DNA of 64,000 nt from Alphaproteobacteria bacterium (GCA_035906055.1 JAMIFV010000021.1:1810-65809); one strand, 5' to 3'. Numbered from the stretch's first letter, positions 5,743 through 41,738 are shown. Translations and numbers: made by a program. The notes: a model not told the origin generated them from the letters alone.

Positions 5743-7272
5743 ATGGAAATTCGCCCTTCGGAAATTTCTGATATTCTCAAGAAAAAGATCGCCGCTTTTG
5801 ATGCAGGCGCTGAACTGTCCGAAACCGGGCAGGTTGTTTCCGTAGGTGACGGTATCGCCACCATCTATGGCCTCGAAAACGTACAGGCCGGTGAAATGGT
5901 GCAGTTCCCCAGCGGCATGAAGGGCATGGCGCTCAATCTTGAAGCCGACAATGTGGGCGTGGTAATCTTCGGTTCCGACCAGGCCGTGAAAGAAGGCGAC
6001 ATCGTAAAACGTACCGGCGACATCGTGGACGTTCCCGTGGGCAAAGGCCTGCTGGGCCGCGTAGTTGACGCACTGGGCAACCCGATCGACGGCAAAGGCC
6101 CCCTGAAGGACGTAAAACGCTCCCGCGTGGAAGTGAAGGCTCCCGGTATCGTATACCGCAAATCCGTACATGAGCCGATGTCCACGGGCATCAAGGCTAT
6201 CGACGCACTCATCCCCATCGGGCGCGGCCAGCGCGAGCTGATCATCGGTGACCGTCAGACCGGCAAGACCGCCATCGCGGTTGACACCATCCTCAACCAG
6301 AAAGCCGCCAACGCAGGCGACGACGAAAGCAAGAAGCTGTACTGCATCTATGTGTGCGTAGGCCAGAAGCGTTCCACCGTTGCGCAGGTAGTGAAAAAGC
6401 TCGAAGAGACCGGCGCGCTGGAATATTCCATCGTGGTAGCCGCCACCGCTTCGGAGCCCGCTCCGCTGCAGTATCTCGCGCCCTACACCGGCGCCGCCAT
6501 GGGCGAATTCTTCCGCGACAACGCCATGCATGCGCTGATCATTTATGATGATCTTTCCAAGCAGGCCGTGGCTTACCGCCAGATGTCCCTGCTCTTGCGC
6601 CGCCCGCCCGGCCGTGAAGCGTATCCCGGTGACGTATTCTACGTTCACTCCCGCCTGCTCGAACGCGCCGCTAAAATGAGCGACGACAAGGGCGCAGGCT
6701 CACTCACCGCCCTGCCCGTCATCGAAACGCAGGCTGGCGACGTATCCGCCTACATCCCGACCAACGTAATCTCCATCACCGACGGCCAGATATTCCTTGA
6801 AACCGAACTGTTCTACAAAGGCGTGCGCCCCGCGGTTAACGTGGGCCTTTCCGTATCCCGCGTAGGTTCTGCCGCGCAGATCAAGGCCATGAAGCAGGTA
6901 GCAGGTTCCATCAAGCTGGAACTCGCGCAGTACCGCGAAATGGAGGCATTCGCCCAGTTCGGTTCCGACCTCGACGCCGCCACGCAGAAGCTGCTGGCAC
7001 GCGGCCAGCGCCTCACTGAACTGCTCAAGCAGCCGCAATACTCTCCGCTCTCCACTTCGGAAGAAGTCCTGGTGATCTATGCGGGCGTAAAAGGCTACCT
7101 CGACGCCATGCCGGTGAAGAACATCGCTGAGTTCGAAAAGGCGCTGCTGCAGCAGGCACGCGCTGAAGGCAAGCTGCTTGCCACCATCGACAAGGAACAG
7201 AAACTCACTGATGCTTCCGAAGCCCAGATGAAAACCATGATCACCGAAATTGTGAAAAGGTTCGCCAGTTAG
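5743..7272 (+). CDS. atpA: F1 ATP synthase alpha subunit
   Basis: GDRQTGKT Walker [14 protein letters not shown]; SD ggag upstream. Confidence 0.99.
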
Positions 7273-7300
7273 GGGCTAGCTACTAGTAGCTAGGGACTGG
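7270..7300 (+). repeat. Left heptamer-period arm (CTAG flavour)
   Basis: CTAG at 7276, 7283, 7290 and CTGG at 7297 (7-nt period); begins at the atpA stop codon TAG. Confidence 0.85.
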
Positions 7301-7305
7301 CTTGT

Positions 7306-7683
7306 ATGGTTAAGCATTATAGAGAACTGAAGATTTGGCAAAGATCCATGGAATTGACGAAATCAATATATGAGGCTACCGCGCAATTTCCTAAAACGGA
7401 AATATATGGCCTTGCCGTTCAGATGCGTCGTTCATCTGTCTCGGTGCCGTCTAATATCGCCGAAGGGCATAATCGAGATTCTTCAAAAGAGTTTCTGCGT
7501 TTTCCTTCCATTGCCCAAGGCTCGCTTGCCGAGTTGGAAACACAGATCACTCTCTCGCAAGCGTTCGCCTACATTCCTGAAAAGCAGGCTTATGATTTAC
7601 TGCAATGTGCCGATGAAGTTGGAAAAATGATTCGCGGCCTGCAATCCAGAATTAACGAAAACCTACTAGCCCCTAGCAACTAG
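7306..7683 (+). CDS. Four-helix-bundle protein (23S rRNA intervening-sequence protein / TIGR02436-like; Avd-like fold)
   Basis: YRELKIWQRSM..IY..T..FPK.E.YGL..QMRRSSVSVPSNIAEG..R.S.KEF....IA.GSL.ELETQ signature; lower GC than flanks. Confidence 0.93.
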   Translation: MVKHYRELKIWQRSMELTKSIYEATAQFPKTEIYGLAVQMRRSSVSVPSNIAEGHNRDSSKEFLRFPSIAQGSLAELETQITLSQAFAYIPEKQAYDLLQCADEVGKMIRGLQSRINENLLAPSN

Positions 7684-7695
7684 CTCCTAGCAACT
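7663..7695 (+). repeat. Right heptamer-period arm (CTAG flavour), inverted relative to 7270-7300
   Basis: CTAG at 7666, 7673, 7680, 7687 and CTAT at 7694; ctagccccta complements taggggctag; contains the four-helix gene stop and abuts the atpG ATG. Confidence 0.85.
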
Positions 7696-8568
7696 ATGCC
7701 AAGTTTAAAAGATTTAAAGAACAGGATTAAGAGCGTCAAATCGACGCAGAAGATCACGAAGGCCATGAAGATGGTGGCCGCCGCGAAGCTGCGCCGCGCC
7801 AAGGACCGTGCAGAATCCGCACGCCCCTATGCGGAAAAGATGGCCGCTATCCTTTCCTCCCTCGCCGCAGGCCAGAGCCAGAACGCCATTCCGCTGCTAA
7901 ACGGCACGGGTAAATCCGACACCGTGCTGCTGGTGGTGATGACCTCCGACCGTGGCCTGTGCGGCGCGTTCAACGGCTCCATCACGCGTGCCACCAAACG
8001 CAAGGTGGCCGAGCTGAGAGCCGCGGGCAAGACCGTGAAGCTCTTGTGCATAGGCAAAAAAGCCTATGACCTGCTCAAGAACGATTTCGGCAGCCTGATC
8101 ATCGGCCGCATGAGCGAGATCGGCAAGAAGCAGGTGCAATACGCGGAAGCCGAACATATCGCACGCGCCGTGCTCAAGCATTTCAACGATGGCGGCATCG
8201 ACATGGTGCATATCGTTTACAACCATTTCAAGTCGGCCATATCGCAGGTGGTTACGTTCCAGCAGGTGATTCCGTTGCTAGAACTAAACAACGAACAACG
8301 AGCAACGAACAACGTTCCCTATGAATTCGAGCCGGATGAAGAATCCATCCTCGCCGACCTGCTGCCGCGTAACGTGGCCGTGCAGATCTATGGCGGGCTT
8401 CTGGAAAATGCCGCATCCGAACAGGGCGCGCGCATGACCGCGATGGACAACGCCACCCGCAACGCAGGCGGCATGATCGGCAAGCTCACCCTCAAATACA
8501 ACCGTACCCGTCAGGCGACGATTACGAAAGAACTCATTGAGATTATCTCGGGAGCGGAAGCATTATAA
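7696..8568 (+). CDS. atpG: F1 ATP synthase gamma subunit
   Basis: [50 protein letters not shown]. Confidence 0.99.
8286..8314 (+). repeat. In-frame heptamer array inside atpG (CAAC flavour)
   Basis: aaacaac-gaacaac-gagcaac-gaacaac-g, encoding NNEQRATNN. Confidence 0.85.
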
Positions 8569-8570
8569 CC

Positions 8571-8634
8571 GTTTTTAGTTGTTGGTTGTTCGTTGTTCGA
8601 ACCGCTGACAACCCACAACAAGCAACGAACAACG
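8571..8634 (+). repeat. Empty heptamer-period hairpin between atpG and atpD (GTTG/CAAC flavour)
   Basis: gttttta-gttgttg-gttgttc-gttgttc, then tgacaac-ccacaac-aagcaac-gaacaac. Confidence 0.88.
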
Positions 8635-8646
8635 ATTTTTGAATAA

Positions 8647-10092
<1,446 letters not shown>

Positions 10093-10099
10093 AATTACT

Positions 10100-10190
10100 G
10101 AGGGGGCCGCGCAACGCGCCCCCCTTAGATTCCATACTCCCCTTTGAAATAAATAGGCCCGTACGGGGTCGCCCGGTTCTGTAGGGTGCC
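10100..10190. repeat. Degenerate GGGGG/CCCCC palindromic 3'-UTR element
   Basis: agggggccgcgcaacgcgccccccttag...ctcccct...ggggtcg resembles the family at 3101 and 52196. Confidence 0.45.
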
Positions 10191-10198
10191 AGGGAATT

Positions 10199-10564
10199 TT
10201 AGCGTCGCAGTCCGTGCTGTGCCTGCCATAAAGCGCCGCCTACCCTTATACCAGTATTCTCAAGCTGCATTGCCTCCAGCACCGGCTGAAGTTTATCCTC
10301 ACCTCCCACGGCAGCGGCTAAATTAGCGGGATCGATCTTATGCCGAATGCGGCCATCGCCAGCGGTAGAAACCGCAGAAGGTATCTCAAGGCGGTCCAGC
10401 GCTTCGCGCGCGTCTATTTTAACGAAATAATTATCCGGGCGTGTAACAGGCTCTTTGCCTTCTTCTACCACAGGCGGGTAGCTGATCTTGTAGACATGGC
10501 CGTCCCTTGCCATCTCCAGCAGCCTGCGCAACTTGTATGCTTCATCAGATTCCGGTTCTTTCAT
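10199..10564 (-). CDS. Hypothetical protein (~121 aa)
   Basis: ORF 10199..10615; ATG at 10564 preceded by gagggg; no family recognised. Confidence 0.6.
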   Translation of the reverse strand: MKEPESDEAYKLRRLLEMARDGHVYKISYPPVVEEGKEPVTRPDNYFVKIDAREALDRLEIPSAVSTAGDGRIRHKIDPANLAAAVGGEDKLQPVLEAMQLENTGIRVGGALWQAQHGLRR

Positions 10565-10654
10565 ACGCCCCTCATGTGAGCCGCCAGTATAACAAGGGTA
10601 AAACACGATAGCCACCTGACAAACATGAAGTTTCCGTTACAACAGACCAGCAAC

Positions 10655-10686
10655 AAAAAAACCCCTGATTTATCAGGGGTTTTTTA
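10655..10686. terminator. Intrinsic terminator (bidirectional) downstream of rpoC
   Basis: aaaaaaacccctgat-tt-atcaggggtttttt hairpin with T-tracts on both strands. Confidence 0.85.
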
Positions 10687-10705
10687 TTATTCTTTACGAA
10701 AATCG

Positions 10706-10810
10706 CTAGGGCGAGCCGGATGCGAAGGTTTGCGAGAACCGTACTGGAGAGTACAACAAGGTACGTGAAGCACGGAAGCGCAGCAAACCAAGCAAGCTGG
10801 CCGCCCCTAG
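10706..10810. repeat. Palindromic intergenic element (GTAC-centred, RPE-like)
   Basis: ctagggcgagcc / ggccgcccctag inverted ends; centre gagtac-aacaag-gtacgtga. Confidence 0.6.
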
Positions 10811-10816
10811 TAGATT

Positions 10817-19210
<8,394 letters not shown>

Positions 19211-19357: not shown

Positions 19358-19363
19358 GTGAAG

Positions 19364-23512: not shown

Positions 23513-23627
23513 TTCGTTGTTCGTTGTTCGTTGTTCATTGTTCGCGCGCACCGGAAGGTGGCATATCCATATAAAGTACTATTTATACAAAATAATTCTA
23601 ACAACGAAGAACTAACAACCAACAACG
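23513..23627 (-). repeat. Heptamer-period inverted repeat at the thiD 3' end (GTTG/CAAC flavour)
   Basis: ttcgttg x3 + ttcattg + ttcg (23513-23544) versus aacaacg-aagaact-aacaacc-aacaacg (23600-23627); the latter includes the last thiD codons and stop. Confidence 0.88.
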
Positions 23628-24424
23628 TGATGATTGAGGGGCCCGTGCCCTTTTCCCAGCCCCGGCGCGGTGCGTATGGCTTCATGCACATATGCCCTTG
23701 CCCGCTCCACCGCCTTTTTCAGTTCCAGCCCCTGCGCCAGGCCGGTCGCGATAGCGGAAGCGAGCGTGCAGCCCGTGCCGTGCGTATGCAAGGTATGGAT
23801 GCGGGGGGAAGAGAACGTGATAAGTGGCACGTGGCACGTGGCAAGAACATCTGTGACGATATCGCCCCGTAAATGCCCCCCCTTGAGCAATACAGACTTA
23901 GCACCTAAAGTGAGCAGAGACTGCGCTAACATTTCCATTTCCTTACCACTTGCCACGTGCCACCTGCCACCACTTAGGAGTTCCGCTTCCGGTATGTTAG
24001 GGGTAAGAACCGCCGCCTTCGGGATCAGCCGCGTTTTCAGGGCTTCCAGAGCCTCCTGCTGAAGCAGTGGTGCGCCGCCCTTGGCTACCATCACGGGGTC
24101 AAGCACAAGCGGAATGGCCGGGTAATCATCCAATACTTTTGCCACCGTGTTGATGACCCCGGCACTATGCAGCATGCCGGTCTTGATGCAGTCCGCGCCG
24201 ATATCCTCCAGCACCAGCCGCATCTGCTGCTCTAAAAAAGCCGTGGGCACCTCATGGATGCCAAAAACCCCGTGGCTGTTCTGGGCGGTGAGTGCCGTTA
24301 CAGCCGTGGCGGCATAGCCCCCAAGCATGGTTATAGTCTTGATATCCCCCTGAATTCCGGCTCCTCCGCCCGAATCCGACCCGGCAACGACCAATACCCT
24401 GCCCGCCAATTTTTTCTCGTTCAT
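23612..24424 (-). CDS. thiD: Hydroxymethylpyrimidine/phosphomethylpyrimidine kinase ThiD
   Basis: AGSDSGGGAGIQGD, DPVMVAKGG, TPNIPEAE, KGGH, HTHGTGCTLASA; ATG 24424 has aaggaa SD. Confidence 0.96.
   Translation of the reverse strand: MNEKKLAGRVLVVAGSDSGGGAGIQGDIKTITMLGGYAATAVTALTAQNSHGVFGIHEVPTAFLEQQMRLVLEDIGADCIKTGMLHSAGVINTVAKVLDDYPAIPLVLDPVMVAKGGAPLLQQEALEALKTRLIPKAAVLTPNIPEAELLSGGRWHVASGKEMEMLAQSLLTLGAKSVLLKGGHLRGDIVTDVLATCHVPLITFSSPRIHTLHTHGTGCTLASAIATGLAQGLELKKAVERARAYVHEAIRTAPGLGKGHGPLNHHVVGC
23817..23970 (-). repeat. In-frame inverted heptamer arms inside thiD (GTGGCA/TGCCAC flavour)
   Basis: gtgataa-gtggcac-gtggcac-gtggcaa (23817-23844) and ttaccac-ttgccac-gtgccac-ctgccac (23943-23970). 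Confidence 0.9.
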
Positions 24425-31308: not shown

Positions 31309-31309
31309 C

Positions 31310-32446: not shown

Positions 32447-32448
32447 TC

Positions 32449-32556
32449 TTCGTCATCCTGTGAATCGCGCAGAGACAGAAAAAATCTTCGGGTGACAAAG
32501 ATCATTGCATCACTTCGGTACAAATTCAGCATCATTTTGTCGCCCGAGCAGAACCA
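32449..32556. repeat. Degenerate GTCATCCTG-family palindrome
   Basis: cttcgtcatcctg start; tcgggtgacaaa / tttgtcgcccga inverted pair. Confidence 0.5.
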
Positions 32557-32718
32557 GAAATGAGAATTTTACCCCCAAAAATAGAAATCTATACATTTGA
32601 ATATACTTAGTTTTTTCTATTATTTTAACTATTTTTAAATGACGTCCGCGCTACAGTGTAAGCATGTTTTCCTCATGAAGAATTATGTGGAAGCGATATT
32701 CAAGGAAAGGACCGTAAC

Positions 32719-33036
32719 ATGACGACCCGGCATGCATTCGACCACAACCGCGCCAGCAGCTATATCGGCAAATCCATTCTCATCGGCCTGCATATTTATG
32801 AGCAGGGCGAAACATCACCGGCCCGGGAACAGATGCACGGCATCATCACCCATGCATCGCCGCAGGGTATCAGGGTAGCGCTCAGGGGGGTGAATGAGGG
32901 CGGCATGCTGAACATGCCCCCCTCGCTTGACGATATTGAAGTGGCCTCGCCCGGCACCTACCTGATCGGTGAGGATAAGATTGAAGATCCCGATTTTATG
33001 GCCACGTGGGCGATCCACCGCACCACCCTGCATTAA
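32719..33036 (+). CDS. Hypothetical protein (105 aa)
   Basis: SD aaggaaagga; followed by a terminator; no named family recognised. Confidence 0.75.
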   Translation: MTTRHAFDHNRASSYIGKSILIGLHIYEQGETSPAREQMHGIITHASPQGIRVALRGVNEGGMLNMPPSLDDIEVASPGTYLIGEDKIEDPDFMATWAIHRTTLH

Positions 33037-33049
33037 GAAGCGTTTCGTC

Positions 33050-33084
33050 AACGCCCCCTTTCCCGCCGGGAAGGGGGCGTTTTT
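33050..33084 (+). terminator. Intrinsic terminator
   Basis: aacgccccctt...aagggggcgtt followed by ttt. Confidence 0.75.
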
Positions 33085-33154
33085 ATGCAGATGCGCGGTT
33101 GCCTGTTGACCCTACCTGCCAGAAGTGCAAGAGGTAGGGCGCTAACAACCGGGT

Positions 33155-34126
33155 ATGCTGAATATGTATCTTTCCGTCGTGATCCCCGTCTATAACGAGT
33201 CCGCCAATATCGATACGCTGTTCGCACGCACCCTGCCCGTGCTCGACAAACTCGGCAAGCCTTACGAGATAGTGCTCACCAATGACGGCAGCCGCGACAA
33301 TTCGCAGGAGCTGCTCGCCAGGCATCAGGCGGCAAGGCCGGATGTGATAAAGGTCATCCAGTTCGCCCGCAATTACGGCCAGCACCCCGCCATCATGGCC
33401 GGGTTTGAGCTGGCGCAGGGCGACGTGGTGGTGACGATGGACGCCGACCTGCAGAACCCGCCGGAAGAAATTCCCAAACTGCTGGCGCTTATTGAGCAAG
33501 GGCACGATGTGGTGGGGGGCTATCGCGGCAACAGGCTGGATTCGCCGTACCGCAAGTTCGTCTCCAAAATGTCCAACATCGTGCGCGCAAAGATCACTAA
33601 GATCGAAATGCGCGACCAGGGCTGCATGCTGCGCGCCTACCGCCGCGAGATTGTCCAGCTTATCGTGGGCAGCAACGAAAGCACGCCGTTCATCACGGCG
33701 CTGGCGCAGTATTTCGCCAACAACCCGGCGGAAGTGGAAGTGGCGCATGAAGAACGCCATGGCGGCACGTCCAACTACAACCTCTACAAGCTCATCCGTT
33801 ATAACTTCGACCTCACCACGGGTTTCTCGCTGGTGCCGCTGCAACTGTTCACCATCTTCGGCATCGTGCTTTCCGCGCTCTCCTGTTTGCTGGTTGTGGT
33901 GCTTGCGGCAAGGCGCATTTTCATCGGGCCGGAAGCGGAAGGCATGTTCACGCTGTTTGGCATTTTGTTCTTCCTGATGAGCGTGGCCATCACCGGGCTT
34001 GGGCTGCTGGGCGAATATATTGGCCGCATTTACCTTGAGGTGCGCCAGCGCCCCAAATATGTCATCCGCAGCGTACTGGGCAAAGATGCACCGAACAAAG
34101 TAACTCCGCTCAAGGAACGCACCTAA
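33155..34126 (+). CDS. arnC: ArnC-like GT2 undecaprenyl-phosphate glycosyltransferase
   Basis: SVVIPVYNE, NDGSRD, RNYGQH, MDADLQNPPEEIP, two C-terminal TMs. Confidence 0.88.
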   Translation: MLNMYLSVVIPVYNESANIDTLFARTLPVLDKLGKPYEIVLTNDGSRDNSQELLARHQAARPDVIKVIQFARNYGQHPAIMAGFELAQGDVVVTMDADLQNPPEEIPKLLALIEQGHDVVGGYRGNRLDSPYRKFVSKMSNIVRAKITKIEMRDQGCMLRAYRREIVQLIVGSNESTPFITALAQYFANNPAEVEVAHEERHGGTSNYNLYKLIRYNFDLTTGFSLVPLQLFTIFGIVLSALSCLLVVVLAARRIFIGPEAEGMFTLFGILFFLMSVAITGLGLLGEYIGRIYLEVRQRPKYVIRSVLGKDAPNKVTPLKERT

Positions 34127-34223
34127 TAACCAGCTAAATTTTCTTGTTAAAAAAGATTCATAAAACTGTCACACACCCTGCGCTTCAAGACGCTATAATC
34201 CTTACACAAAGCGCAAGGTACCC

Positions 34224-34817
34224 ATGCATAAAGAAGACCAAAACGCCCACTACCGCATCACCGAAGTCACATTTGGCCCGGAGCTGTCCAAAAATATCGA
34301 CCGGCTTTTTGCGGGTAGGAATGCAAGTGAACAGCGTGCGATCCGAGAAGCGCTCGATATTGCCCTGAAAGACGCCACAACCCCATCTAAGAATTATGCA
34401 CTTACTAAAATAAAAGGCCCTTTCAAGCTCACACTCGACAGCGCAGATGGTAATATCTTCGTTCAGCTGGATAACAAAATGGGGGAAAGCCTGAAAGCTT
34501 TTCTTCCGATGAGAAGGCTTGAAGTCGATATGCTCAATTTCTGGGATAACCTCGCACCTTATATGAAGAGAGCCCTGCCTACAGGTGATATGCGCCAGAT
34601 ACTGGAAGAAGCCCGTCATGATAGCCACGGGCGTGGCGCAGAACTTGTGCGTTCCGCGCTAGCAGAACAGGGCATGCCGACAGTCAGGGAATATGGTGGT
34701 GCATTGTTTGAGGCACTTTCCTTTGCCTATCATGACAAGGAGAGGATAAATCCCCGTCCTCAGGTTGCCATACGCATGGCGCAACTCGACGCACGAGGCC
34801 AGAGAGTCGCGTTCTAG
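34224..34817 (+). CDS. Hypothetical protein (197 aa, lower GC)
   Basis: ORF with no family motif; inside the arn cluster. Confidence 0.65.
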   Translation: MHKEDQNAHYRITEVTFGPELSKNIDRLFAGRNASEQRAIREALDIALKDATTPSKNYALTKIKGPFKLTLDSADGNIFVQLDNKMGESLKAFLPMRRLEVDMLNFWDNLAPYMKRALPTGDMRQILEEARHDSHGRGAELVRSALAEQGMPTVREYGGALFEALSFAYHDKERINPRPQVAIRMAQLDARGQRVAF

Positions 34818-34874
34818 AACGCAAAACTCCATTGCGTAACGCTGCAAACCTGCTATTTCCTACCTGACTTGAAC

Positions 34875-34951
34875 GTCTTCCTGCGGCTTGACCGCAGGAT
34901 CTCAGGCGATAATGCACTGGCCTGAGATCCTGTGCTTTCGCACAGGATGAC
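34875..34951. repeat. REP-like GTCATCCTG-family double hairpin
   Basis: gtcttcctgcgg-cttga-ccgcaggatctcagg ... cctgagatcctgtgc-tttc-gcacaggatgac. Confidence 0.8.
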
Positions 34952-34969
34952 GAAATAACATGGATACTT

Positions 34970-35992
34970 ATGAATATTTTAATCCTCGGCGCTAACGGCT
35001 TCATCGGCAGCAATCTCATTGCGCGCATCGTAGCTACCAAGCCCGACTGGCGCATCACCGCGCTTGACCTCGGCGCCGATAAGCTGGATGGCCTCGAAAA
35101 ACACAAACAGGTCACGTTCCACAAAGCCGATATGCTCGCCGCACGCGATTGGGTCTCCGAGCAGGTAAGCAAAGCTGATGTGGTGCTGCCGCTCGTGGCC
35201 ATCGCCACCCCCGCCACCTATGTAAGCGACCCGCTCTCCGTGTTCGAACTGGACTTTGAAGCCAACCTCGCCGTGGTGCGCGACTGCGTGAAATACAAGA
35301 AACGCCTGATCTTTCCCTCCACGTCGGAAGTCTACGGCATGAGCGAAGACCTGCCTTACGATGAAGAGGAAAGCCGCCTTGTCACCGGCCCCATCAACAA
35401 ACAGCGCTGGATCTATTCCTGCTCCAAGCAGATGATGGACCGCGTGATTTATGCCTATGGCCAGCGCGGGGCCTTGCAGTTCACGCTGTTCCGCCCGTTC
35501 AACTGGATCGGGCCGAAGCAGGACAATGTATGGAACAATAAAGGCACCAGCAGCCGCGCAGTGCCGCAGTTCCTGAGTGACATACTGCACAAACGCGACA
35601 TCCAGCTTGTGGCAGGCGGCGCGCAGAAACGCTGCTTCCTCTACATAGACGACGCGATGGATGCGATGATGCGTATTTTAGAGAATAAAAATGGCTGCGC
35701 CGATAGCGGCATCTTTAATATCGGCCATCCGGGCAATGAGGCGAGCATCCGCGAACTGGCGGAAACGCTGCTTTCCACGATAAAAACCTTCCCCGGTTAT
35801 GAAAACGTCCCCACGCGCATCATCGACACGTCCGCCGACGCCTATTACGGCAAAGGGTATCAGGACGTGGAGCGCCGCGTGCCTTCCATCCGCCGCGCCG
35901 AAGAAAAACTCGGCTGGAAGCCGGTGACGGATTTTGCCGCCTGCCTGCACAAGACCGTAGAATTCTACCTGCGCCAGAAACAGGCCGCATAA
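34970..35992 (+). CDS. arnA: Stand-alone ArnA C-terminal domain (UDP-glucuronate oxidase/decarboxylase)
   Basis: ILGANGFIG, LPLVAIATP, FPSTSEVYG, RWIYSCSKQ, FRPFNWIGP, GYQDV; no formyltransferase domain. Confidence 0.88.
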   Translation: MNILILGANGFIGSNLIARIVATKPDWRITALDLGADKLDGLEKHKQVTFHKADMLAARDWVSEQVSKADVVLPLVAIATPATYVSDPLSVFELDFEANLAVVRDCVKYKKRLIFPSTSEVYGMSEDLPYDEEESRLVTGPINKQRWIYSCSKQMMDRVIYAYGQRGALQFTLFRPFNWIGPKQDNVWNNKGTSSRAVPQFLSDILHKRDIQLVAGGAQKRCFLYIDDAMDAMMRILENKNGCADSGIFNIGHPGNEASIRELAETLLSTIKTFPGYENVPTRIIDTSADAYYGKGYQDVERRVPSIRRAEEKLGWKPVTDFAACLHKTVEFYLRQKQAA

Positions 35993-35998
35993 CACGCC

Positions 35999-36490
35999 AT
36001 GTTCATACGTCACCTCAGTGAAGCGGACCGCGGCATCTATAATCCCTTTATCCTGCGCGGCGTGCATGAGCATGCGGACTGTTTCCGCATCAGCGAGCAG
36101 GACGTGCTGGAATCACCCGATCCCCTATTGTCTCTTTATGTGGATGACTTTACGCTTGGCGCGTTTGAAGAAGAAGGCCTGTTGCTGGGAGTGGTGAGCT
36201 TCGCACGGGAAACGCGGCAGAAATTCCTGCATAAGGGGCTTTTGTACCGCATGTATGTGGCGGCGGAAACGACGTCGCGAGGCATCGGGCGCGAACTCAT
36301 CCGCCAGACCGTGGCGCTTGCACGCCAGCAACCGGGGCTGGAACAGATATTGCTTACGGTACTCAGCCATAACATGAAAGCGATACAGTTATATGCATCG
36401 GAAGGCTTCGTCGTCTTTTCCAAAGAACCCCACGCACTCAAGTCCGATAAAACCTATTTCGACGAAGAGCAGATGGTGCTATACCTTTAA
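35999..36490 (+). CDS. GNAT family N-acetyltransferase
   Basis: HKGLLYRMYV...RGIGRELI, N.KAIQLY..EGF. Confidence 0.88.
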   Translation: MFIRHLSEADRGIYNPFILRGVHEHADCFRISEQDVLESPDPLLSLYVDDFTLGAFEEEGLLLGVVSFARETRQKFLHKGLLYRMYVAAETTSRGIGRELIRQTVALARQQPGLEQILLTVLSHNMKAIQLYASEGFVVFSKEPHALKSDKTYFDEEQMVLYL

Positions 36491-36681
36491 CAGGTAGGGG
36501 CCACCCCCCTATTGTGCAAAAATGACACAGGCAAATTTTTCCCAGCTGTCATCAATAAGCATTTTTTCATGCCGGATAACACGGCAAAAATTTGTCAAGG
36601 AATAGGTAAGGCATAAGCAAAAAAATCGTATTGCTTTAACTACGCAGTGCAATCAGTTGAATAAAAATTATATTTACAATG

Positions 36682-36723
36682 TTATCCCCAATTTATCCAC
36701 TGCTATTACCCCAGTTATCCACT
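36682..36723 (+). promoter_or_regulatory. Head-to-tail DnaA-box-like array upstream of nrdA
   Basis: ttatcccca 36682, ttatccact 36693, ttatccact 36715 (each one mismatch to TTATCCACA; 11-nt phasing). Confidence 0.65.
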
Positions 36724-36765
36724 ATATATAGTAGTTGATAACAATTTCTGGACTAGATGTTGACA
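36719..36765. promoter_or_regulatory. Tandem NrdR boxes
   Basis: ccactatatatagtag 36719-36734 and ggactagatgttgaca 36750-36765, 31 bp apart, matching the acaCwAtATaTwGtgt consensus. Confidence 0.8.
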
Positions 36766-36871
36766 GCAACAGAGGCAACTCTTAAGAATGATTTTGAGCT
36801 TCAGAAAAGAAGCGAGCCAGGTACAGAACATAACAAAACACCAAAAGAGTACGCGCTCAGGGAGAGAGACC

Positions 36872-38686
36872 ATGCAAGCCATCCAGATAGACCGTTCCCG
36901 TGACAACCGCCTGACCACATTCGGCAAGGCTACCCTGCAGGACCGTTACCTGCTTGAAGGTGAAAGCTTTCAGGATATGTTCGCGCGCGCAGCCAAGCAT
37001 TATGCCGACAACGCGGAACATGCGCAGCGCCTGTATGACTATGTCAGCCAGCTCTGGTTCATGCCCGCCACCCCCATCCTCTCCAATGGCGGCAGCAATC
37101 GCGGCCTTCCCATCTCGTGCTTCCTCAACGAAACGCAGGACAATCTCGAAGGCATCGTGACGCTGTGGAACGAAAACGTATGGCTCGCGGCTCGCGGCGG
37201 CGGCATCGGCAGCTACTGGGGCAATTTGCGCTCCATCGGTGAAAAAGTGCGCGGCAACGGCAAGACCTCCGGCGTAGTGCCCTTCATGCGCGTGCAGGAC
37301 TCCCTCACCCTTGCCATCTCGCAAGGCTCGCTCCGCCGTGGCAGCTCCGCCGTCTATATGCCGATCGACCACCCGGAGATCGAGGAATTCATCGATATCC
37401 GCCGCCCCACCGGCGGCGACCCCAACCGCAAGGCGCTCAACATCCATCACGGCGTTGCCGTATCCGACGCGTTCATGCAGGCGGTTGAAAACGGTGACGA
37501 CTGGAACCTCGTAAGCCCCAAGAGCAAGAACGTCATCCACACCGTGAAGGCGCGCGACCTCTGGATCAAGCTGCTCACCGCCCGCGTGGAAACCGGCGAG
37601 CCGTACATCCTGTTCATCGACAGCGTGAACCGCGCCATTCCGGAACATCACCGCCAGCTCGGCCTGCTGGTGAAAACCTCCAACCTGTGCAGCGAGATCA
37701 CGCTGCCCACCGGCGAAGACCACCTGGGCAAGGAACGCACCGCCGTATGCTGCCTGTCCTCCATCAACCTTGAAACCTACGACGAATGGGTGAACCACCC
37801 CACTTTTGTTGAAGACGTCATGCGCTTCCTCGACAACGTGCTGCAGGACTTCATCGACTCCTCTCCCGACAGCATGAGCCGCGCAAAATACTCCGCCATG
37901 CGCGAGCGCAGCGTGGGCCTTGGCGTGATGGGCTTCCATTCTTTCCTGCAGAGCAAGATGATCCCGTTTGAATCCGTCATGGCCAAGGTATGGAACAAGC
38001 GCATGTTCGCCCATATCCGCACCCAGGCGGACGCGGCTTCCAAGAAGCTGGCCGAAGAGCGCGGCGCCTGCCCGGATGCGGCGGAATGCGGCATGATGGA
38101 ACGCTTCAGCAACAAGATGGCGATCGCGCCCACCGCGTCCATTTCGGTGATCGCGGGCAATTCCTCGCCCGGCATTGAGCCCTACGCCGCCAACAGCTTC
38201 ACGCAGAAGACGCTTTCGGGCTCCTTCAACGTGCGCAACAAACACCTCACGCGTATCCTGGAGTCTTACGGCTATAACAACGAAGACGTATGGAGTTCCA
38301 TCTCCTCGCATGAAGGCTCCGTGCAGCACCTGCCCTTCCTCACGGAGGACGAAAAGCTCGTGTTCAAGACCGCGCCGGAGATCGACCAGCGCTGGATCGT
38401 GGAACATGCCGCCGACCGCACGCCCTATATATGCCAGGCACAGTCCGTCAACCTGTTCCTGCCTGCCAACATCCACAAGCGCGACCTGCACATGCTGCAT
38501 ATGGACGCGTGGAAAAAAGGCATGAAGAGCCTGTATTACTGCCGCTCCACGTCCATGCAGCGCGCGGAAAAGGTTTCCCACAAGGTAGACGGCACCGGCC
38601 TGCAGCTGGAAATGTCGCTGGTGAAGAAGACCGCCCCCGTCATGTACCAGCCCGGCAAATACGAAGAATGCCTGGCGTGCCAGTAA
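36872..38686 (+). CDS. nrdA: Class Ia ribonucleotide reductase alpha subunit (no ATP cone)
   Basis: PATPIL, PISCFL, TSNLCSEI, KSLYYCR, C-terminal CLAC; SD ggagag before ATG 36872. Confidence 0.97.
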   Translation: MQAIQIDRSRDNRLTTFGKATLQDRYLLEGESFQDMFARAAKHYADNAEHAQRLYDYVSQLWFMPATPILSNGGSNRGLPISCFLNETQDNLEGIVTLWNENVWLAARGGGIGSYWGNLRSIGEKVRGNGKTSGVVPFMRVQDSLTLAISQGSLRRGSSAVYMPIDHPEIEEFIDIRRPTGGDPNRKALNIHHGVAVSDAFMQAVENGDDWNLVSPKSKNVIHTVKARDLWIKLLTARVETGEPYILFIDSVNRAIPEHHRQLGLLVKTSNLCSEITLPTGEDHLGKERTAVCCLSSINLETYDEWVNHPTFVEDVMRFLDNVLQDFIDSSPDSMSRAKYSAMRERSVGLGVMGFHSFLQSKMIPFESVMAKVWNKRMFAHIRTQADAASKKLAEERGACPDAAECGMMERFSNKMAIAPTASISVIAGNSSPGIEPYAANSFTQKTLSGSFNVRNKHLTRILESYGYNNEDVWSSISSHEGSVQHLPFLTEDEKLVFKTAPEIDQRWIVEHAADRTPYICQAQSVNLFLPANIHKRDLHMLHMDAWKKGMKSLYYCRSTSMQRAEKVSHKVDGTGLQLEMSLVKKTAPVMYQPGKYEECLACQ

Positions 38687-38689
38687 AAA

Positions 38690-38745
38690 GAGAACTCGAT
38701 GACTCGAGGACTGGAGGGCTTTATCGAGTCCTCGGGTTCTCAAGC
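38690..38745 (+). repeat. Octamer-period inverted repeat after nrdA
   Basis: actcga 38694, actcga 38702, actgga 38710 versus tcgagt 38724, tcgggt 38732, tcaagc 38740. Confidence 0.7.
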
Positions 38746-38768
38746 GCTCTTTCATCAAGGAGAAACCT

Positions 38769-39152
38769 ATGGCCGTAGCAGCATCATTTATCGACGCCCA
38801 GATATTCCAGCGCTGGGGACATGAAGTCCGCGGCTGGTTCAACAGCCCGCATGAACTGGAAGAACGCCCCGGCGTGTTCGTCGTCGCCACGCAGGGGTTC
38901 CAGATTCCGTTCGTACTGGATGTCGGCGAATCGGAAAACCTGCGCCTCACCGTGCTGGGCCACGACCGGCGCGTATTCTGGCGCCGCAACGCGCTGGGCA
39001 GCCTGTTTTATGCGGCGCTGTACATTGAAAACGGCGACTCCCCGTTCCTCAGCGGCTTCCACCGCCAGAATATCGAGCAGCGCATACGCAGCATGGAGCA
39101 ACCCGTATTCGGCGAACACGAAGTGTTTGCGCGCCCCGAACATCAGCAGTAA
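38769..39152 (+). CDS. Small protein with degenerate GIY-YIG-like pattern
   Basis: SD aaggag; PGVFVV...VLDVGESENLR....HDR and a late IEQ resemble the GIY-YIG core, with canonical Tyr positions substituted. Confidence 0.55.
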   Translation: MAVAASFIDAQIFQRWGHEVRGWFNSPHELEERPGVFVVATQGFQIPFVLDVGESENLRLTVLGHDRRVFWRRNALGSLFYAALYIENGDSPFLSGFHRQNIEQRIRSMEQPVFGEHEVFARPEHQQ

Positions 39153-39191
39153 GATCTCAGTATAACGAATCATATACTCTAAAACAATCTC

Positions 39192-40079
39192 ATGATTAAT
39201 ACTCCAACATCCGTATCTGGCGCTTCTTCTTTTGAAGATTTGAAACATCTTAATGATCATGGGGCTGAATATTGGAGTGCACGCGACTTACAATTACTCT
39301 TGGGATATAGTCAGTGGAGACGATTCGAAGATGCTATTGGCCGTGCACAAATGTCGTGCGAACAATCTGGAAATAAACCCAAAAACCATTTTGCCGGTGC
39401 CGGCAAAATGGTTGTTATAGGCTCCGGAAGCGCCCGTAATGTGCCAGATTTTCATTTATCGCGTTTTGCCTGTTATCTTATTGCTCAGAATGGTGATGCC
39501 AGAAAACCTGAAATTGCGTATGCACAACACTATTTTGCAGTTCAAACCAGAAAGCAGGAATTAGACGAACAATTAGCCGCAGATAAAGAAAGAGTAGAAT
39601 TACGTAAACAAACTGCTGAAGAGTTCAAAGCTTTATCTGGAGCAGCGCGTGAAGCAGGTGTTGAAAACAGAATGTTTGGCGTTTTCCATGATGCTGGATA
39701 TAAAGGGCTTTATGACGGATTAGGGAATGAGGCTATTAAAACCCGCAAAGCTATTCCTGAAAAGGAAAATTTAATGGACCGTATGAATGCTACTGAGTTG
39801 GCCGCCAATCAATTTCGCATGACTCAAACGCGAGACAAACTTGCTCGGGAAGGCATACGTCAACAAGGGAAAGCCATCGCAATGCACGAACACGTGGGGC
39901 GCGAGGTACGTGATGCAATAAAGCGCATTGGAGGCGACTTACCAGAGAATATTCCGCCCGCTGAGCATATAAAGAATGTTGAGAAACGAATTAAAGAAGC
40001 TGTACCTAAGCTTGAATTGAATGATCAGCATGCCGCTGGATTACTTGGTAATACTGCCGAAATAACTCACAATAATTAA
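39192..40079 (+). CDS. dinD: DNA damage-inducible protein D
   Basis: EYWSARDL..LLGY..W..F, LSRFACYLIAQNGDARK..IAYAQHYFAVQTRKQE, LDRM-like ELAANQFR.TQ; markedly lower GC. Confidence 0.9.
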   Translation: MINTPTSVSGASSFEDLKHLNDHGAEYWSARDLQLLLGYSQWRRFEDAIGRAQMSCEQSGNKPKNHFAGAGKMVVIGSGSARNVPDFHLSRFACYLIAQNGDARKPEIAYAQHYFAVQTRKQELDEQLAADKERVELRKQTAEEFKALSGAAREAGVENRMFGVFHDAGYKGLYDGLGNEAIKTRKAIPEKENLMDRMNATELAANQFRMTQTRDKLAREGIRQQGKAIAMHEHVGREVRDAIKRIGGDLPENIPPAEHIKNVEKRIKEAVPKLELNDQHAAGLLGNTAEITHNN

Positions 40080-40098
40080 CAAACCATCAGGAGAGTTC

Positions 40099-41058
40099 AT
40101 GTCCCTTCTTGAATCCAACCCGATCTACAAGCCCTTCCACTATCCCTGGGCCTACGAAGCATGGCTCATGCAGCAGCGTATCCACTGGCTGCCCGAGGAA
40201 GTGCCGCTGGCCGACGACGTGAAAGACTGGAAAACGACGCTTAAGCCCGAGGAAAAACACCTGCTCACGCAGATATTCCGCTTTTTCACGCAGTCGGACA
40301 TCGAGGTGAACAACTGCTACATGCAGCATTACGCGCGCGTGTTCAAACCCACCGAAGTGCTCATGATGCTGGCGGCGTTCTCCAACATGGAGACTATCCA
40401 TATCTCCGCCTATTCACACCTCATCGACACGCTGGGCATGCCCGATACCGAATACCAGGCCTTCCTCAAATACAAGGAGATGAAGGACAAATACGACTAC
40501 ATGCACCAGTTCAGCACCGACACGAAAGACGGCATCGCGCGCACGCTCGCGGCATTCGGCGCTTTCACGGAAGGGCTGCAGTTGTTCGCATCGTTCGCGA
40601 TGCTGCTCAACTTCCAGCGCTTCGGCAAGATGCGCGGCATGGGCCAGATCATCGCGTGGAGCGCGCGTGACGAAACGCTGCACACCGAATCCATCATCCG
40701 CCTGTATAAAACCTTCCTCGCGGAAAACCCCGAAGTGGACCATGAATTCCTCAAGCGCGATCTTTACAAGATATGCGACACGATCGTGGGGCTTGAAGAT
40801 AATTTCATCCAGCTTTCCTTCGGCGTGGGCGGCATCGAAGGCCTCACGGCGGAAGAAGTGAAGATGTACATTCGCTACATCGCCGACCGCCGCCTCGTTC
40901 AGCTTGGGCTGGAACCGATGTACCGCATCAGCAAGAACCCGCTGCCGTGGATGGACGAAATCCTCAACGGCGTGGAACATACCAACTTCTTCGAGAACCG
41001 CGTGACGGAATACACCAAGGCCGCCACCACGGGTTCATGGGAAGATGCGTTTGCGTAG
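40099..41058 (+). CDS. nrdB: Class Ia ribonucleotide reductase beta subunit
   Basis: FFTQSD, ETIH, EGLQLF, RDETLH, NFFENRVTEY. Confidence 0.97.
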   Translation: MSLLESNPIYKPFHYPWAYEAWLMQQRIHWLPEEVPLADDVKDWKTTLKPEEKHLLTQIFRFFTQSDIEVNNCYMQHYARVFKPTEVLMMLAAFSNMETIHISAYSHLIDTLGMPDTEYQAFLKYKEMKDKYDYMHQFSTDTKDGIARTLAAFGAFTEGLQLFASFAMLLNFQRFGKMRGMGQIIAWSARDETLHTESIIRLYKTFLAENPEVDHEFLKRDLYKICDTIVGLEDNFIQLSFGVGGIEGLTAEEVKMYIRYIADRRLVQLGLEPMYRISKNPLPWMDEILNGVEHTNFFENRVTEYTKAATTGSWEDAFA

Positions 41059-41070
41059 GGATTTGTTTAC

Positions 41071-41150
41071 GGGGGCACGCTGCCCCCGTTTACGCTCCGC
41101 ATAAACTCCCCCTGCGGGGTCGTCGTGAAGAACTTCCTCCATGACTACGG
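41071..41150. repeat. 3'-UTR repeat family copy (sense to nrdB)
   Basis: gggggcacgctgccccc...ctccccctgcggggtcgtcg...ttcctcc...tacgg. Confidence 0.7.
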
Positions 41151-41165
41151 CAAGCATAGTAGATG

Positions 41166-41642
41166 CTATTTTTTCAGCACTTCGTCGGGCTTCAGCCCCT
41201 GCTTTTCCAGCAGCGCCGCGAGCATGGCATTCTGGTATTCCAGATGCTGCAGCACCAGTTCAATCTCCTGCTCGGCCTTGATGTTCACATCAAGGTCGTT
41301 CTGCGAACGGATATCGGCCTTACGCGCCTGAATATTCTGCCCCACCATGATGAGCGGCATGAGCATGATCTGGATGAGGTTTGAAATAAACAGCCAGAAT
41401 ACGAAGCCCATCGGCGGGTCGAACTGGTATTGCGCGGGCGCAGCCAGGTTCCAGCCGAGCCACAGCAGCGTCCAGCCGAAAATGATGAGGAAGAAGCCGA
41501 TCGTGCCCACTTTTTCCGTGATGGCACACGCAACCCTGTCCAGCCGTGTCATCTTTTCCGCCGCGATATGGCTGGCATTGCGCAAGCCCCGCTGGCGCTT
41601 CCTGAATTCCGCGAAGGAGGTGGGTTTTTTATGTTCCGTCAT
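41166..41642 (-). CDS. DUF1003-type membrane protein
   Basis: Two TMs, FDPP, LIMVGQN.Q...D..R...D..VN.KAE.EI pattern. Confidence 0.8.
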   Translation of the reverse strand: MTEHKKPTSFAEFRKRQRGLRNASHIAAEKMTRLDRVACAITEKVGTIGFFLIIFGWTLLWLGWNLAAPAQYQFDPPMGFVFWLFISNLIQIMLMPLIMVGQNIQARKADIRSQNDLDVNIKAEQEIELVLQHLEYQNAMLAALLEKQGLKPDEVLKK

Positions 41643-41673
41643 GCAGAGTTCTTTGGCAACAGTAGATGAATGC

Positions 41674-41738
41674 GTACTCGGTTAATCGTACTCGGTACTC
41701 GGAGCAATACCGAGTACGCAAAACCGTGTACCGAGTAC
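41674..41738 (-). repeat. Heptamer-phased inverted repeat after the APC permease (GTACTC/GAGTAC flavour)
   Basis: gtactcg at 41674, 41688, 41695; cgagtac 41711, cgtgtac 41725, cgagtac 41732; starts 6 nt after the stop codon. Confidence 0.75.

What the first reader, a model, noticed from the sequence alone, without database searches (positions are those of the whole stretch)
7270..41738. Candidate undescribed system: geometry-conserved 4x7-nt inverted-repeat hairpins in housekeeping mRNAs, linked to a four-helix-bundle gene
SEEN: six inverted pairs, one extra arm and one 8-nt variant. Arms are about four tandem 7-nt units (~28 nt), but the unit sequence differs between loci (CTAG 7270/7663; GTTG/CAAC 8571, 23513, 8286; GAGTTC 15036; GTGGCA 23817; GTACTC 41674). 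In the heptamer pairs the G/U-richer arm comes first on the transcribed strand, and the intergenic ones start at or within a few nt of a stop codon. Only one pair has cargo, the four-helix-bundle gene. KNOWN: this protein family was first found in 23S rRNA intervening sequences, which are looped out by an RNA helix and cut by RNase III. It shares the fold of the pentameric DGR accessory protein Avd. Heptamer tandem repeats (STRR) are known in cyanobacteria. INFERENCE: conserved geometry with free sequence and strand polarity suggests an RNA-level element, either a processing/stability helix or a periodic binding array for the four-helix oligomer, with full and empty forms. I cannot confirm from here that this is absent from the literature.
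Basis: partly seen in the sequence, partly recalled or inferred. Interest (0 to 1): 0.88.

Follow-up and report, generated by a model that had tools for sequence, protein, structure and literature searches.

The report
Heptamer-repeat hairpins and four-helix-bundle cassettes
This small alphaproteobacterial genome holds about 38 hairpins built from mirror-image runs of 7-base repeats, and all four of its intact "rRNA intervening-sequence protein" genes sit inside such hairpins, so the design long known from ribosomal RNA inserts also occupies ordinary operons, with function still unproven.

Summary
Every listed array and pair is in the window. Genome-wide, period-7 arrays outnumber other non-triplet periods more than tenfold (91 against 6 of period 8).

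- All four PF05635 genes of the genome lie between heptamer arms 365-400 nt apart.
- A fifth, internally deleted copy sits between purC and purS.
- 55 of 80 related PF05635 genes from more than 15 phyla are armed in the same way; controls gave 0 of 160 and 2 of 80.
- The design matches the Coxiella 23S rRNA intervening sequence (IVS): a 28-bp stem, tandem heptamers, about 430 nt, cut by RNase III.

- "G/U arm first on the transcribed strand" holds for both strands of any inverted repeat. It is a handedness, not a strand polarity.
- Wobble-type mismatches show no bias to the sense strand (23 against 24).

New here: arms can overwrite coding sequence without length gain (thiD, carA). Hairpins fill the gap from stop codon to next start codon. 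A cassette's repeat unit is also the unit dispersed through its host genome.

Function is inferred, not shown. I rate it a new variant of a known kind.

The parts
7270..7298 (.). 5' arm of the cassette: units AGGGGCT AGCTACT AGTAGCT AGGGACT. Its first bases supply the atpA stop codon TAG (7270-7272).
7306..7683 (+). Four-helix-bundle gene of 125 aa (PF05635, 23S rRNA IVS protein family). Its C-terminal residues are read from the 3' arm.
   Evidence: 132.6 bits against a cut-off of 33.8; PDB 2gsc XCC0516, E 4.9e-33; conserved motif
7663..7696 (.). 3' arm of the cassette: ACTAGCC CCTAGCA ACTAGCT CCTAGCA ACT. It ends at the atpG ATG (7696).
8287..8314 (.). Solo in-frame AACAACG x4 array inside atpG (residues 198-207, NNEQRATNN), in a variable loop. 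A relative about 88% identical has 6 nt fewer here.
8567..8637 (.). ORF-less hairpin of the GTTGTT family filling the atpG|atpD junction: arms 8567-8596 and 8608-8637, loop cgaaccgct. It is a weak helix. The same loop occurs at C58:37912.
   Evidence: A relative's contig has 42 nt in place of 117 nt here. L004 has a 4HB cassette at this junction.
15035..15101 (.). ORF-less hairpin of the RGAGTTC family filling the rpoB|rpoC junction: arms 15035-15062 and 15074-15101. It starts 1 nt from the rpoB stop codon and has no U-tract.
   Evidence: -45.4 kcal/mol, z -9.0
23515..23627 (.). GTTGTT-family pair at the 3' end of thiD. The G/T arm (on the mRNA strand) encodes the last residues (VVGC) and the stop codon; a 57-nt AT-rich spacer follows.
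   Evidence: (-39.1 kcal/mol, z -4.7)
23824..23970 (.). In-frame GTGGCAC-family arm pair inside thiD (arms 23824-23845 and 23949-23970). It encloses 103 nt of conserved thiD coding sequence and adds about 1 codon per arm compared with E. coli ThiD.
41674..41731 (.). ORF-less hairpin of the GTACTCG family between the permease gene (41745-43736, -) and the DUF1003 gene (41166-41642, -).
   Evidence: -37.5 kcal/mol, z -6.2
38690..38747 (.). Period-8 (GAGGACTC-like) imperfect hairpin starting 4 nt after the ribonucleotide-reductase stop codon. Membership in the family is uncertain.

Best explanation
The hairpins are members of one genome-wide family of inverted tandem-heptamer elements. Each arm has about 4 units of the form AGNNNNY, and the G-rich arm lies 5' on both strands.

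The gene-carrying form is about 430 nt: a 28-nt arm, a PF05635 four-helix-bundle ORF, then the complementary arm. This is the same module as the ORF-bearing intervening sequence of 23S rRNA, but here it sits at cistron boundaries of ordinary operons such as atpA|atpG. The short hairpins are ORF-less relatives. At least some arose by decay of the cargo.

Most likely mode of action (inferred):
1. Once transcribed, the two arms pair into a helix of about 28 bp.
2. RNase III cuts that helix, as it does for the rRNA IVS of the same family. This cuts the polycistronic mRNA at the junction, or releases the 4HB message.
3. The pentameric 4HB protein is the cognate partner of the 4-5-unit array and helps keep or spread arrays of its own unit.

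Shown: the architecture, its association with PF05635, sharing of a unit within a genome, the junction placement, and patchy presence among relatives.

Inferred: pairing in vivo, RNase III cutting, protein binding, and how arrays are written.
For: **In this genome.**
- All four PF05635 genes lie between heptamer arms 365-400 nt apart, each with its own unit.
- The paralogs are 42-48% identical with the family motif intact, so they are under selection.
- A fifth copy at C20:11448-11705 (purC|purS) keeps the N- and C-terminal parts, has lost the middle, and has CGAG-type arms.
- The three largest array families are those that have a cassette: GTTGTTC 26 arrays, AGTTGCA 15, AGAGTTC 14.
- RNase III is encoded at C30:3464-3838.
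- Hairpins fold far better than shuffled sequence: -45.4, -39.1 and -37.5 kcal/mol, with z of -9.0, -4.7 and -6.2.
- One pair of hairpins shares both arms and loop (atpG|atpD and C58:37912), so whole hairpins are copied at least sometimes.

**Across other genomes.**
- 55 of 80 related genes are flanked by complementary arms scoring 14 or more. Controls gave 0 of 160 pseudo-cargo positions and 2 of 80 mismatched flank pairs.
- Period 7 marks 37 upstream and 46 downstream flanks. Every other period tested marks 0-3.
- The unit consensus has A at position 1 in 47 of 52 arms and G at position 2 in 52 of 52. The median arm is 4.3 units.
- AGTGGTC x3 gives 461 and 755 hits in the two genomes whose cassette uses that unit. 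Most others give 0-35, but three give more: 157 and 30, where the cassette unit is a near variant, and 117, where it is unrelated.
- AGATGCC x3 gives 28 hits in its own genome and 0-1 in 13 of the 15 others. The two exceptions (54 and 18) are related units at 1-3 mismatches, AGATGTC/AGATGCT and AGAGGCC.

**Presence and absence.**
- Relatives have 0-53 nt between atpA and atpG.
- One relative carries a cassette at atpG|atpD instead.
- PF05635 is present in 13 of 31 relatives. GTTGTT arrays occur only in family members that also have the gene. The complete same-family genome without the gene has none.

**Precedent.** The Coxiella IVS is 428 nt with a 28-bp stem and tandem heptamers of variable copy number, and is cut by RNase III (PMC4990558).
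Against: - No RNA data exist for this organism. Pairing and cutting are therefore unobserved.
- Wobble-type mismatches show no sense-strand preference (23 against 24). A helix selected in RNA should show one.
- Many helices carry a mismatch at every seventh position.
- The window's own cassette arms and the atpG|atpD hairpin fold no better than shuffled sequence (z -1.4 and -1.7).
- Arms in thiD, carA, priA and the E2 linker enclose host coding sequence rather than imported cargo. In thiD and carA they add almost no length. A simple insert-as-a-unit model does not explain this.
- Three unit families (GGTACTC, AGGGATT/AGGCATT, GTGGCA) have no cassette in this assembly.
- The 4HB protein has no known nuclease, recombinase or polymerase fold. 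No target-site duplication is visible.
- My 69% armed figure comes from the 80 closest relatives only. An earlier check in this scan found that only 2.6-7.9% of the whole family is armed.
Confidence: 0.5

Rival explanations
1. The arrays act on DNA. They are oriented binding sites, one heptamer per subunit, for a DNA-binding protein, possibly the 4HB pentamer itself. The pairs serve as operator-like or nucleoid-structuring sites, or extrude as cruciforms. The RNA helix would be a by-product.
For: - There is no sense-strand G:U bias.
- Handedness is strict, with the G-rich arm 5' on both strands in 34 of 36 pairs. That amounts to convergent orientation of an asymmetric unit.
- AG is invariant at the start of the unit, which looks like a recognition feature.
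- Paired tandem heptamers and octamers in Geobacter were read as binding sites of a global regulator (PMC2700814).
- The units within an arm stay alike, as repeated binding sites would.
Against: - A 7-bp spacing puts successive sites on different faces of B-DNA.
- The arms sit between a stop codon and the next start codon inside operons, rather than at promoters.
- The same module in rRNA is processed as RNA (PMC4990558).
- No DNA-binding activity is known for PF05635 proteins.
Confidence: 0.2
2. The arrays are selfish or neutral slippage products, heptamer microsatellites that form hairpins. The 4HB genes are separate small mobile genes that settle preferentially in hairpin loops. Arrays and protein would then share an address but no function.
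For: - Heptamer repeats are over-represented in many bacteria, which has been attributed to polymerase slippage (cited in PMC4679880 and PMC4692102).
- Loops of same-family hairpins are mostly unrelated in sequence and length.
- Three families lack a cassette.
- Other small genes also occupy the atpA|atpG junction in relatives.
Against: - Slippage does not explain why two arms 100-400 nt apart carry the same unit in inverted orientation, always with the same handedness.
- It does not explain why 4 of 4 intact genes are armed, each with a different unit.
- It does not explain why arm complementarity is specific to each cassette: 55 of 80 against 2 of 80 for mismatched flanks.
- It does not explain why the same unit recurs at many loci within one genome but not in others.
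Confidence: 0.15
3. The hairpins work like REP elements or intercistronic stabilisers. They block 3' exonucleases or modulate translational coupling at operon junctions, and so set the ratio of neighbouring gene products (rpoB:rpoC, atpA:atpG:atpD). RNase III and the 4HB protein would play no part.
For: - The hairpins lie exactly between a stop codon and the next start codon of co-directional genes.
- The stems are very stable and have no U-tract.
- This is how REP sequences work in enterobacterial operons (established knowledge).
Against: - It does not account for the 4HB cargo.
- It does not account for arm pairs placed in frame inside genes.
- It does not account for the 7-nt periodicity or the AG rule.
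- Closely related strains lack the atpG|atpD hairpin, so it is dispensable there.
Confidence: 0.15

Closest known systems
ORF-bearing intervening sequences (IVS) of 23S rRNA (Coxiella burnetii S23p IVS; Leptospira; Warrier et al. 2016, PMC4990558; Ralph & McClelland 1993)
   Same: - Same protein family in the loop (PF05635/S23p).
- Terminal inverted repeats forming a stem of about 28 bp.
- Tandem heptamers in the stem region, with variable copy number.
- Total size about 430 nt.
- Proposed selfish or once-mobile nature.
   Different: - Here the element is not in rRNA. The 23S gene is 2811 nt with no insert.
- It sits at operon cistron boundaries and even inside protein-coding genes.
- It coexists with dozens of ORF-less hairpins of the same units.
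- RNase III excision has not been shown here.
Inverted (convergent) heptamer arrays of Xanthomonas (GGGAATC; Rehm et al. 2015, PMC4692102) and paired tandem heptamer/octamer sites of Geobacter metallireducens (Aklujkar et al. 2009, PMC2700814); cyanobacterial STRR
   Same: - Tandem heptamers of about 4-5 units.
- Often found as inverted pairs, intergenic and sometimes intragenic.
- Many copies per genome.
   Different: - Those papers name no associated gene family.
- They read the arrays as G-quadruplex formers or regulator sites.
- Here several unit families coexist, and each major one has a 4HB cassette.
REP/REPIN elements with their RAYT (TnpA_REP) gene
   Same: - Works alike in layout: a single-copy gene flanked by inverted copies of the repeat that is dispersed genome-wide as short hairpins in intergenic spacers.
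- Families are specific to each genome.
   Different: - The cargo is a 125-aa four-helix bundle, not a Y1 (HUH) transposase.
- The repeats are periodic heptamer arrays rather than a fixed palindrome.
- Mobilisation has not been demonstrated.
Avd accessory protein of diversity-generating retroelements
   Same: A related pentameric four-helix-bundle fold. PF22296 bAvd matches weakly at 36 bits, below its cut-off of 40.
   Different: - No reverse transcriptase anywhere in the genome.
- No template/variable repeat pair.
- The protein scores far higher to PF05635.

Membership tests
PF05635 / TIGR02436 four-helix-bundle protein (23S rRNA IVS protein, S23p) | Pfam model match above the gathering score | tested here: met
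   132.6 bits against a cut-off of 33.8 for window 7306-7683. The genome has four genes over the cut-off.
PF05635 / TIGR02436 four-helix-bundle protein (23S rRNA IVS protein, S23p) | Conserved GxxRxxxSxxxNxxE-type motif and homology to the solved pentameric XCC0516 | tested here: met
   G35, R41/R42, S46, N50 and G54 are invariant in the four paralogs. 2gsc matches at E 4.9e-33. The motif is named in PMC3936711. Oligomeric state was not tested.
23S rRNA intervening sequence (IVS) | Inserted in a 23S rRNA helix (helix 9, 25 or 45) | tested here: not met
   The only 23S gene (C57:33642-36452) is 2811 nt against a 2925-position model, with no insert. The cassette lies between atpA and atpG.
23S rRNA intervening sequence (IVS) | Terminal inverted repeats forming a long stem (about 28 bp), with tandem heptamers | tested here: met
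   Arms are 22-31 nt with 3-4.6 units in all four cassettes. The window copy is the most degenerate.
23S rRNA intervening sequence (IVS) | Excision from the transcript by RNase III | not testable with these tools
   The RNase III gene is present. No RNA runs hold the stretch.
REPIN-RAYT system | Flanked gene encodes a Y1/HUH transposase (RAYT) | tested here: not met
   The cargo matches only PF05635 and bAvd-like.
REPIN-RAYT system | The repeat flanking the gene is the repeat dispersed in the same genome | tested here: met
   Own genome. Other genomes.
Diversity-generating retroelement (Avd module) | Adjacent reverse transcriptase and a template/variable repeat pair | tested here: not met
   PF00078 gives 0 matches in a genome estimated 100% complete.
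MITE / insertion sequence | Target-site duplication flanking terminal inverted repeats; a transposase somewhere in the genome for the family | tested here: inconclusive
   No direct duplication is visible in the 12-nt flanks of 26 hairpins. No transposase search was done. One pair shares its loop, which suggests whole-element copying.
Intrinsic terminator | G+C-rich stem followed by a U-tract | tested here: not met
   The rpoB|rpoC hairpin is followed by CCAUUAG, and other hairpins run straight into the next start codon.
Cyanobacterial STRR | Tandem heptamers in a cyanobacterial genome | tested here: not met
   The host is an alphaproteobacterial MAG: undivided rpoC, and the nearest atpG relatives are Rickettsiales and Alphaproteobacteria MAGs. 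Only the repeat type is shared.

The most novel reading that the evidence does not exclude
PF05635 pentamers are sequence-specific partners of tandem heptamer arrays. Together with host repair functions, they write and homogenise inverted arrays of their own unit at transcribed junctions. They can even overwrite variable stretches of coding DNA without changing its length (thiD, carA). This would be a repeat-propagating system with no recognisable nuclease, recombinase or reverse transcriptase. The rRNA intervening sequences would be one special case of it.
Probability: 0.2. Interest if true: 0.9.

Novelty: new variant of a known kind. Interest (0 to 1): 0.62.

Why it matters
Heptamer repeats are the most over-represented long simple repeats in bacteria. 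PF05635 is a very widespread protein family. Neither has a known function, and the origin of rRNA intervening sequences has been open since the early 1990s.

This genome ties the three together in one place:
- Four intact cassettes, each with its own repeat unit.
- One decaying cassette.
- About 33 ORF-less hairpins that share those units.
- Arm pairs written into essential genes without length change.

That makes two questions directly testable. Does RNase III cut operon mRNAs at these helices? Does each 4HB paralog recognise its own heptamer? The genome also shows that small, highly expressed housekeeping operons (atp, rpoBC, pur, car) tolerate such elements at their cistron boundaries.

Tried and rejected
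- **Strand polarity as evidence for RNA.** Rejected. An inverted repeat has the same arm order on both strands. The wobble test was null (23 against 24).
- **DGR-like retrohoming as the way arms overwrite coding DNA.** Rejected. The genome has no reverse transcriptase.
- **IVS in this genome's own 23S rRNA.** None found.
- **RNA-seq evidence.** No RNA runs hold the stretch. DNA runs only confirmed the assembly and showed a relative without the atpG|atpD hairpin.
- **Intrinsic terminator reading.** Rejected. There are no U-tracts.
- **One cassette per unit family.** Not strict. GGTACTC, AGGGATT/AGGCATT and GTGGCA have none in this assembly. A same-family relative does have an AGGGATT-armed cassette.
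- **Abundance of cassette-bearing families as proof of a master-copy relation.** Rejected as proof. Random placement of cargo among hairpins would give the same result.
- **Literature.** Five full-text searches found no paper linking non-rRNA PF05635 genes to heptamer arms.
- **My first gene caller** missed the 4HB gene because of its atypical codon usage. I replaced it.

Full report
**Observation.**
- Tandem Repeats Finder reports period-7 arrays at 7665, 8287, 8570, 15035/15072, 23513/23600, 23824/23946 and 41674, and a period-8 array at 38690.
- The inverted-repeat search pairs them as described.
- The window is C21:1810-65809 of a 2.36-Mb, 81-contig, 55% G+C genome.
- The genome belongs to an alphaproteobacterium from activated sludge. 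Its nearest atpG relatives (66% identity) are MAGs labelled Rickettsiales or Alphaproteobacteria.
- Period 7 is far in excess. Arrays of at least 3 copies number 91, against 6 of period 8 and 4 of period 10. Strict 4-copy arrays number 39, against 0-1 for periods 8-14 and 3-6 for periods 4-6.
- I found 36 inverted pairs scoring 12 or more. Adding the weaker window cassette and one decayed cassette gives 38 pair entries. Two of the 36 merely join arms of neighbouring elements.

**The link to the four-helix-bundle gene.**
- All pairs whose arms lie 365-400 nt apart enclose a PF05635 ORF:
  - C21:9079-9505, the window cassette, with CTAGC-type units;
  - C36:12121-12550, with AGTTGCA units;
  - C40:27828-28285, with AGAGTTC units;
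  - C79:21255-21670, with GTTGTTC units.
- A profile search of the whole genome (estimated 100% complete) finds exactly these four genes over the cut-off.
- The paralogs are only 42-48% identical but keep the family motif.
- The closest solved structure is the pentameric XCC0516, PDB 2gsc, at E 4.9e-33.
- A fifth, sub-threshold hit at C20 is a decayed cassette between purC and purS. Its reading frame begins MKYGSYRELSVWQK and then jumps to the C-terminal helix. It is flanked by CGAG-type arms that start at the purC stop codon and end a few nt (5-7) before the purS start codon. This is a direct intermediate between the full and empty forms.

**Generality.**
- I used the four proteins as a query and fetched the 80 best related loci from the species-genome collection. 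They cover Planctomycetota, Acidobacteriota, Bacillota, Chloroflexota, Bacteroidota, Patescibacteria, Elusimicrobiota, Omnitrophota, Verrucomicrobiota and several proteobacterial classes.
- Complementary arms scoring 14 or more flank 55 of the 80. The controls gave 0 of 160 random pseudo-cargo positions and 2 of 80 pairings of one locus's left flank with another locus's right flank.
- Period-7 signal marks 37 upstream and 46 downstream flanks, against 0-3 for periods 5, 6, 8, 9 and 10.
- Phase-aligned units read A (47 of 52), G (52 of 52), then three G/T-rich free positions, then Y, Y. The rotation step inflates this somewhat, since about 36% of random heptamers contain AG. Arms have a median of 4.3 units.
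- Caveat: these are the closest relatives of this genome's proteins. An earlier check in this scan found only 2.6-7.9% of the whole family armed. The 69% figure therefore must not be extrapolated.

**Relation to print.**
- The Coxiella burnetii 23S IVS is 428 nt. It has a 28-bp terminal stem, an S23p (PF05635) ORF and three to four tandem heptamers whose number varies between strains. RNase III cuts it at the first repeat (PMC4990558). This is the same module.
- Convergent inverted heptamer arrays without a named gene are described in Xanthomonas (about 70 pairs; PMC4692102).
- Paired tandem heptamers and octamers are described in Geobacter (PMC2700814).
- PF05635 genes inside cas operons were noted in PMC3936711.
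- Five full-text searches found no paper that joins non-rRNA PF05635 genes to heptamer arms.
- This genome's own 23S gene has no IVS.

- An inverted repeat X...rc(X) reads X first on both strands. "G/U arm first on the transcribed strand" therefore carries no information about transcription.
- What is real is a handedness. In 34 of 36 pairs the G/T-rich arm is 5'. The two exceptions pair an arm of one element with an arm of its neighbour.
- As a true strand test I counted mismatches that would be G:U on the sense transcript and compared them with those that would be G:U only on the antisense transcript. The 29 pairs used have known transcription direction. The result was 23 against 24. There is no RNA-specific signature, although statistical power is low.

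**Placement.**
- Hairpins fill cistron junctions. The 5' arm typically starts -4 to +13 nt from the upstream stop codon and often supplies that codon. Examples are TAG for atpA and the TAG in GTTGTTAG for thiD. The 3' arm ends 0-12 nt before the next start codon.
- Relatives have 0-53 nt between atpA and atpG.
- One relative (L004) has its own GATGATC-armed 4HB cassette at atpG|atpD, exactly where this genome has an ORF-less hairpin.
- A closely related strain in a wastewater run has 42 nt instead of 117 nt at that junction. Another contig from that run, about 88% identical, has 6 nt fewer in the in-gene atpG array.

**Arms inside genes.**
- In thiD and carA the two arms lie in frame and enclose conserved host coding sequence.
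- Against the E. coli orthologs, the thiD arms add one codon each. The carA arms add four and remove three. Pfam places thiD residues 76-323 on profile positions 1-246.
- priA and the E2 linker show the same layout. In recJ the whole 69-nt hairpin looks like an in-frame insertion, judged against the typical RecJ sequence recalled from memory and not aligned.
- Arms are therefore not always imported together with their loop. They can replace variable stretches in place.
- No reverse transcriptase exists in the genome, so a DGR-like route is excluded. How the arms are written remains unexplained.
- Conversely, the atpG|atpD hairpin and C58:37912 share their arms and the loop cgaaccgct, so whole hairpins are sometimes copied.

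**Cassette units and dispersed units.**
- In this genome the three largest array families (GTTGTTC 26 arrays, AGTTGCA 15, AGAGTTC 14) are those with a cassette. CTAGC-type has 4 arrays. GGTACTC, AGGGATT/AGGCATT and GTGGCA have no cassette. A same-family relative does have an AGGGATT-armed cassette.
- Across genomes, AGTGGTC x3 (up to 3 mismatches) gives 461 and 755 hits in the two genomes whose cassette uses that unit. Most others give 0-35, but three give more: 157 and 30, where the cassette unit is a near variant, and 117, where it is unrelated.
- AGATGCC x3 gives 28 hits in its own genome and 0-1 in 13 of the 15 others. The two exceptions (54 and 18) are related units at 1-3 mismatches.
- Among 31 relatives, PF05635 is present in 13. 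GTTGTT arrays occur only in four genomes of the same family that also have the gene. The complete same-family genome without the gene has none.
- All this shows that arrays and cassettes belong together. It does not tell whether the protein propagates arrays, whether cargo settles in existing hairpins, or whether empties are decayed cassettes. The purC|purS copy shows that decay does happen.

**Mechanism.** I commit, at about 0.5, to an IVS-type element family.
- Shown: the architecture, the association, the placement and the patchy distribution.
- Inferred: the arms pair in the transcript, RNase III (present) cuts the helix as it does for the rRNA IVS, and the 4HB pentamer recognises its 4-5-unit array.
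- For: the predicted helices are very stable (-45.4 kcal/mol, z -9.0 at rpoB|rpoC).
- Against: two helices, including the window cassette, are weak. The wobble test is null. Rivals are set out in their own section.

**Verdict.** This is a new variant of a known kind: an IVS-type cassette outside rRNA, accompanied by a dispersed family of ORF-less hairpins. This scan has met the same design in many other genomes. The added value here is fivefold:
- the corrected polarity argument;
- the decayed intermediate;
- the length-neutral in-gene arms checked against E. coli orthologs;
- the unit-sharing tests;
- the co-occurrence among relatives.

Noticed in passing
window 52286-52646: A dispersed repeat of about 220 bp (roughly window 52338-52558) is present in at least 30 copies across the genome at 84-93% identity. 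Here it is nested between perfect 19-nt inverted repeats (AATCTTTCGTCATCCTGAG / CTCAGGATGACGAAAGATT), whose sequence also recurs elsewhere. It looks like a MITE family unrelated to the heptamer hairpins.
   Followed up: partly
window 44882-45153: A second element bounded by 32-nt inverted repeats, 91% complementary and 208 nt apart. Its copy number was not read from the BLAST output.
   Followed up: no
L003 2384-3000 and L009 2362-3000: In two relatives the atpA|atpG junction holds a different insert of about 620-640 nt with two small ORFs. By eye they look like a DUF4258/DUF2283-type pair; I did not scan them. This junction seems to be a recurrent landing place for small genes in the lineage.
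   Followed up: no
G007:C23:47680-47805: A Lysobacteraceae isolate genome whose 4HB cassette has AGAGGCC arms also carries a single uninterrupted array of about 18 AGAGGCC units elsewhere.
   Followed up: no
C40:26634-28285 (own genome): carA carries an in-frame arm pair and then reads through the 5' arm of the adjacent 4HB cassette as a 19-residue C-terminal extension. One gene therefore meets three arms of the same AGAGTTC family within 1.2 kb.
   Followed up: partly
window 7306-7683: The 4HB gene scored below threshold in a codon-usage gene caller trained on this genome's long ORFs. This suggests atypical codon usage and possibly foreign origin.
   Followed up: no
window 5000-43000: The window holds about 6 of the genome's roughly 38 heptamer pairs in 64 kb, about six times the genome average. 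They are concentrated in the atp, rpoBC and thiD region.
   Followed up: no
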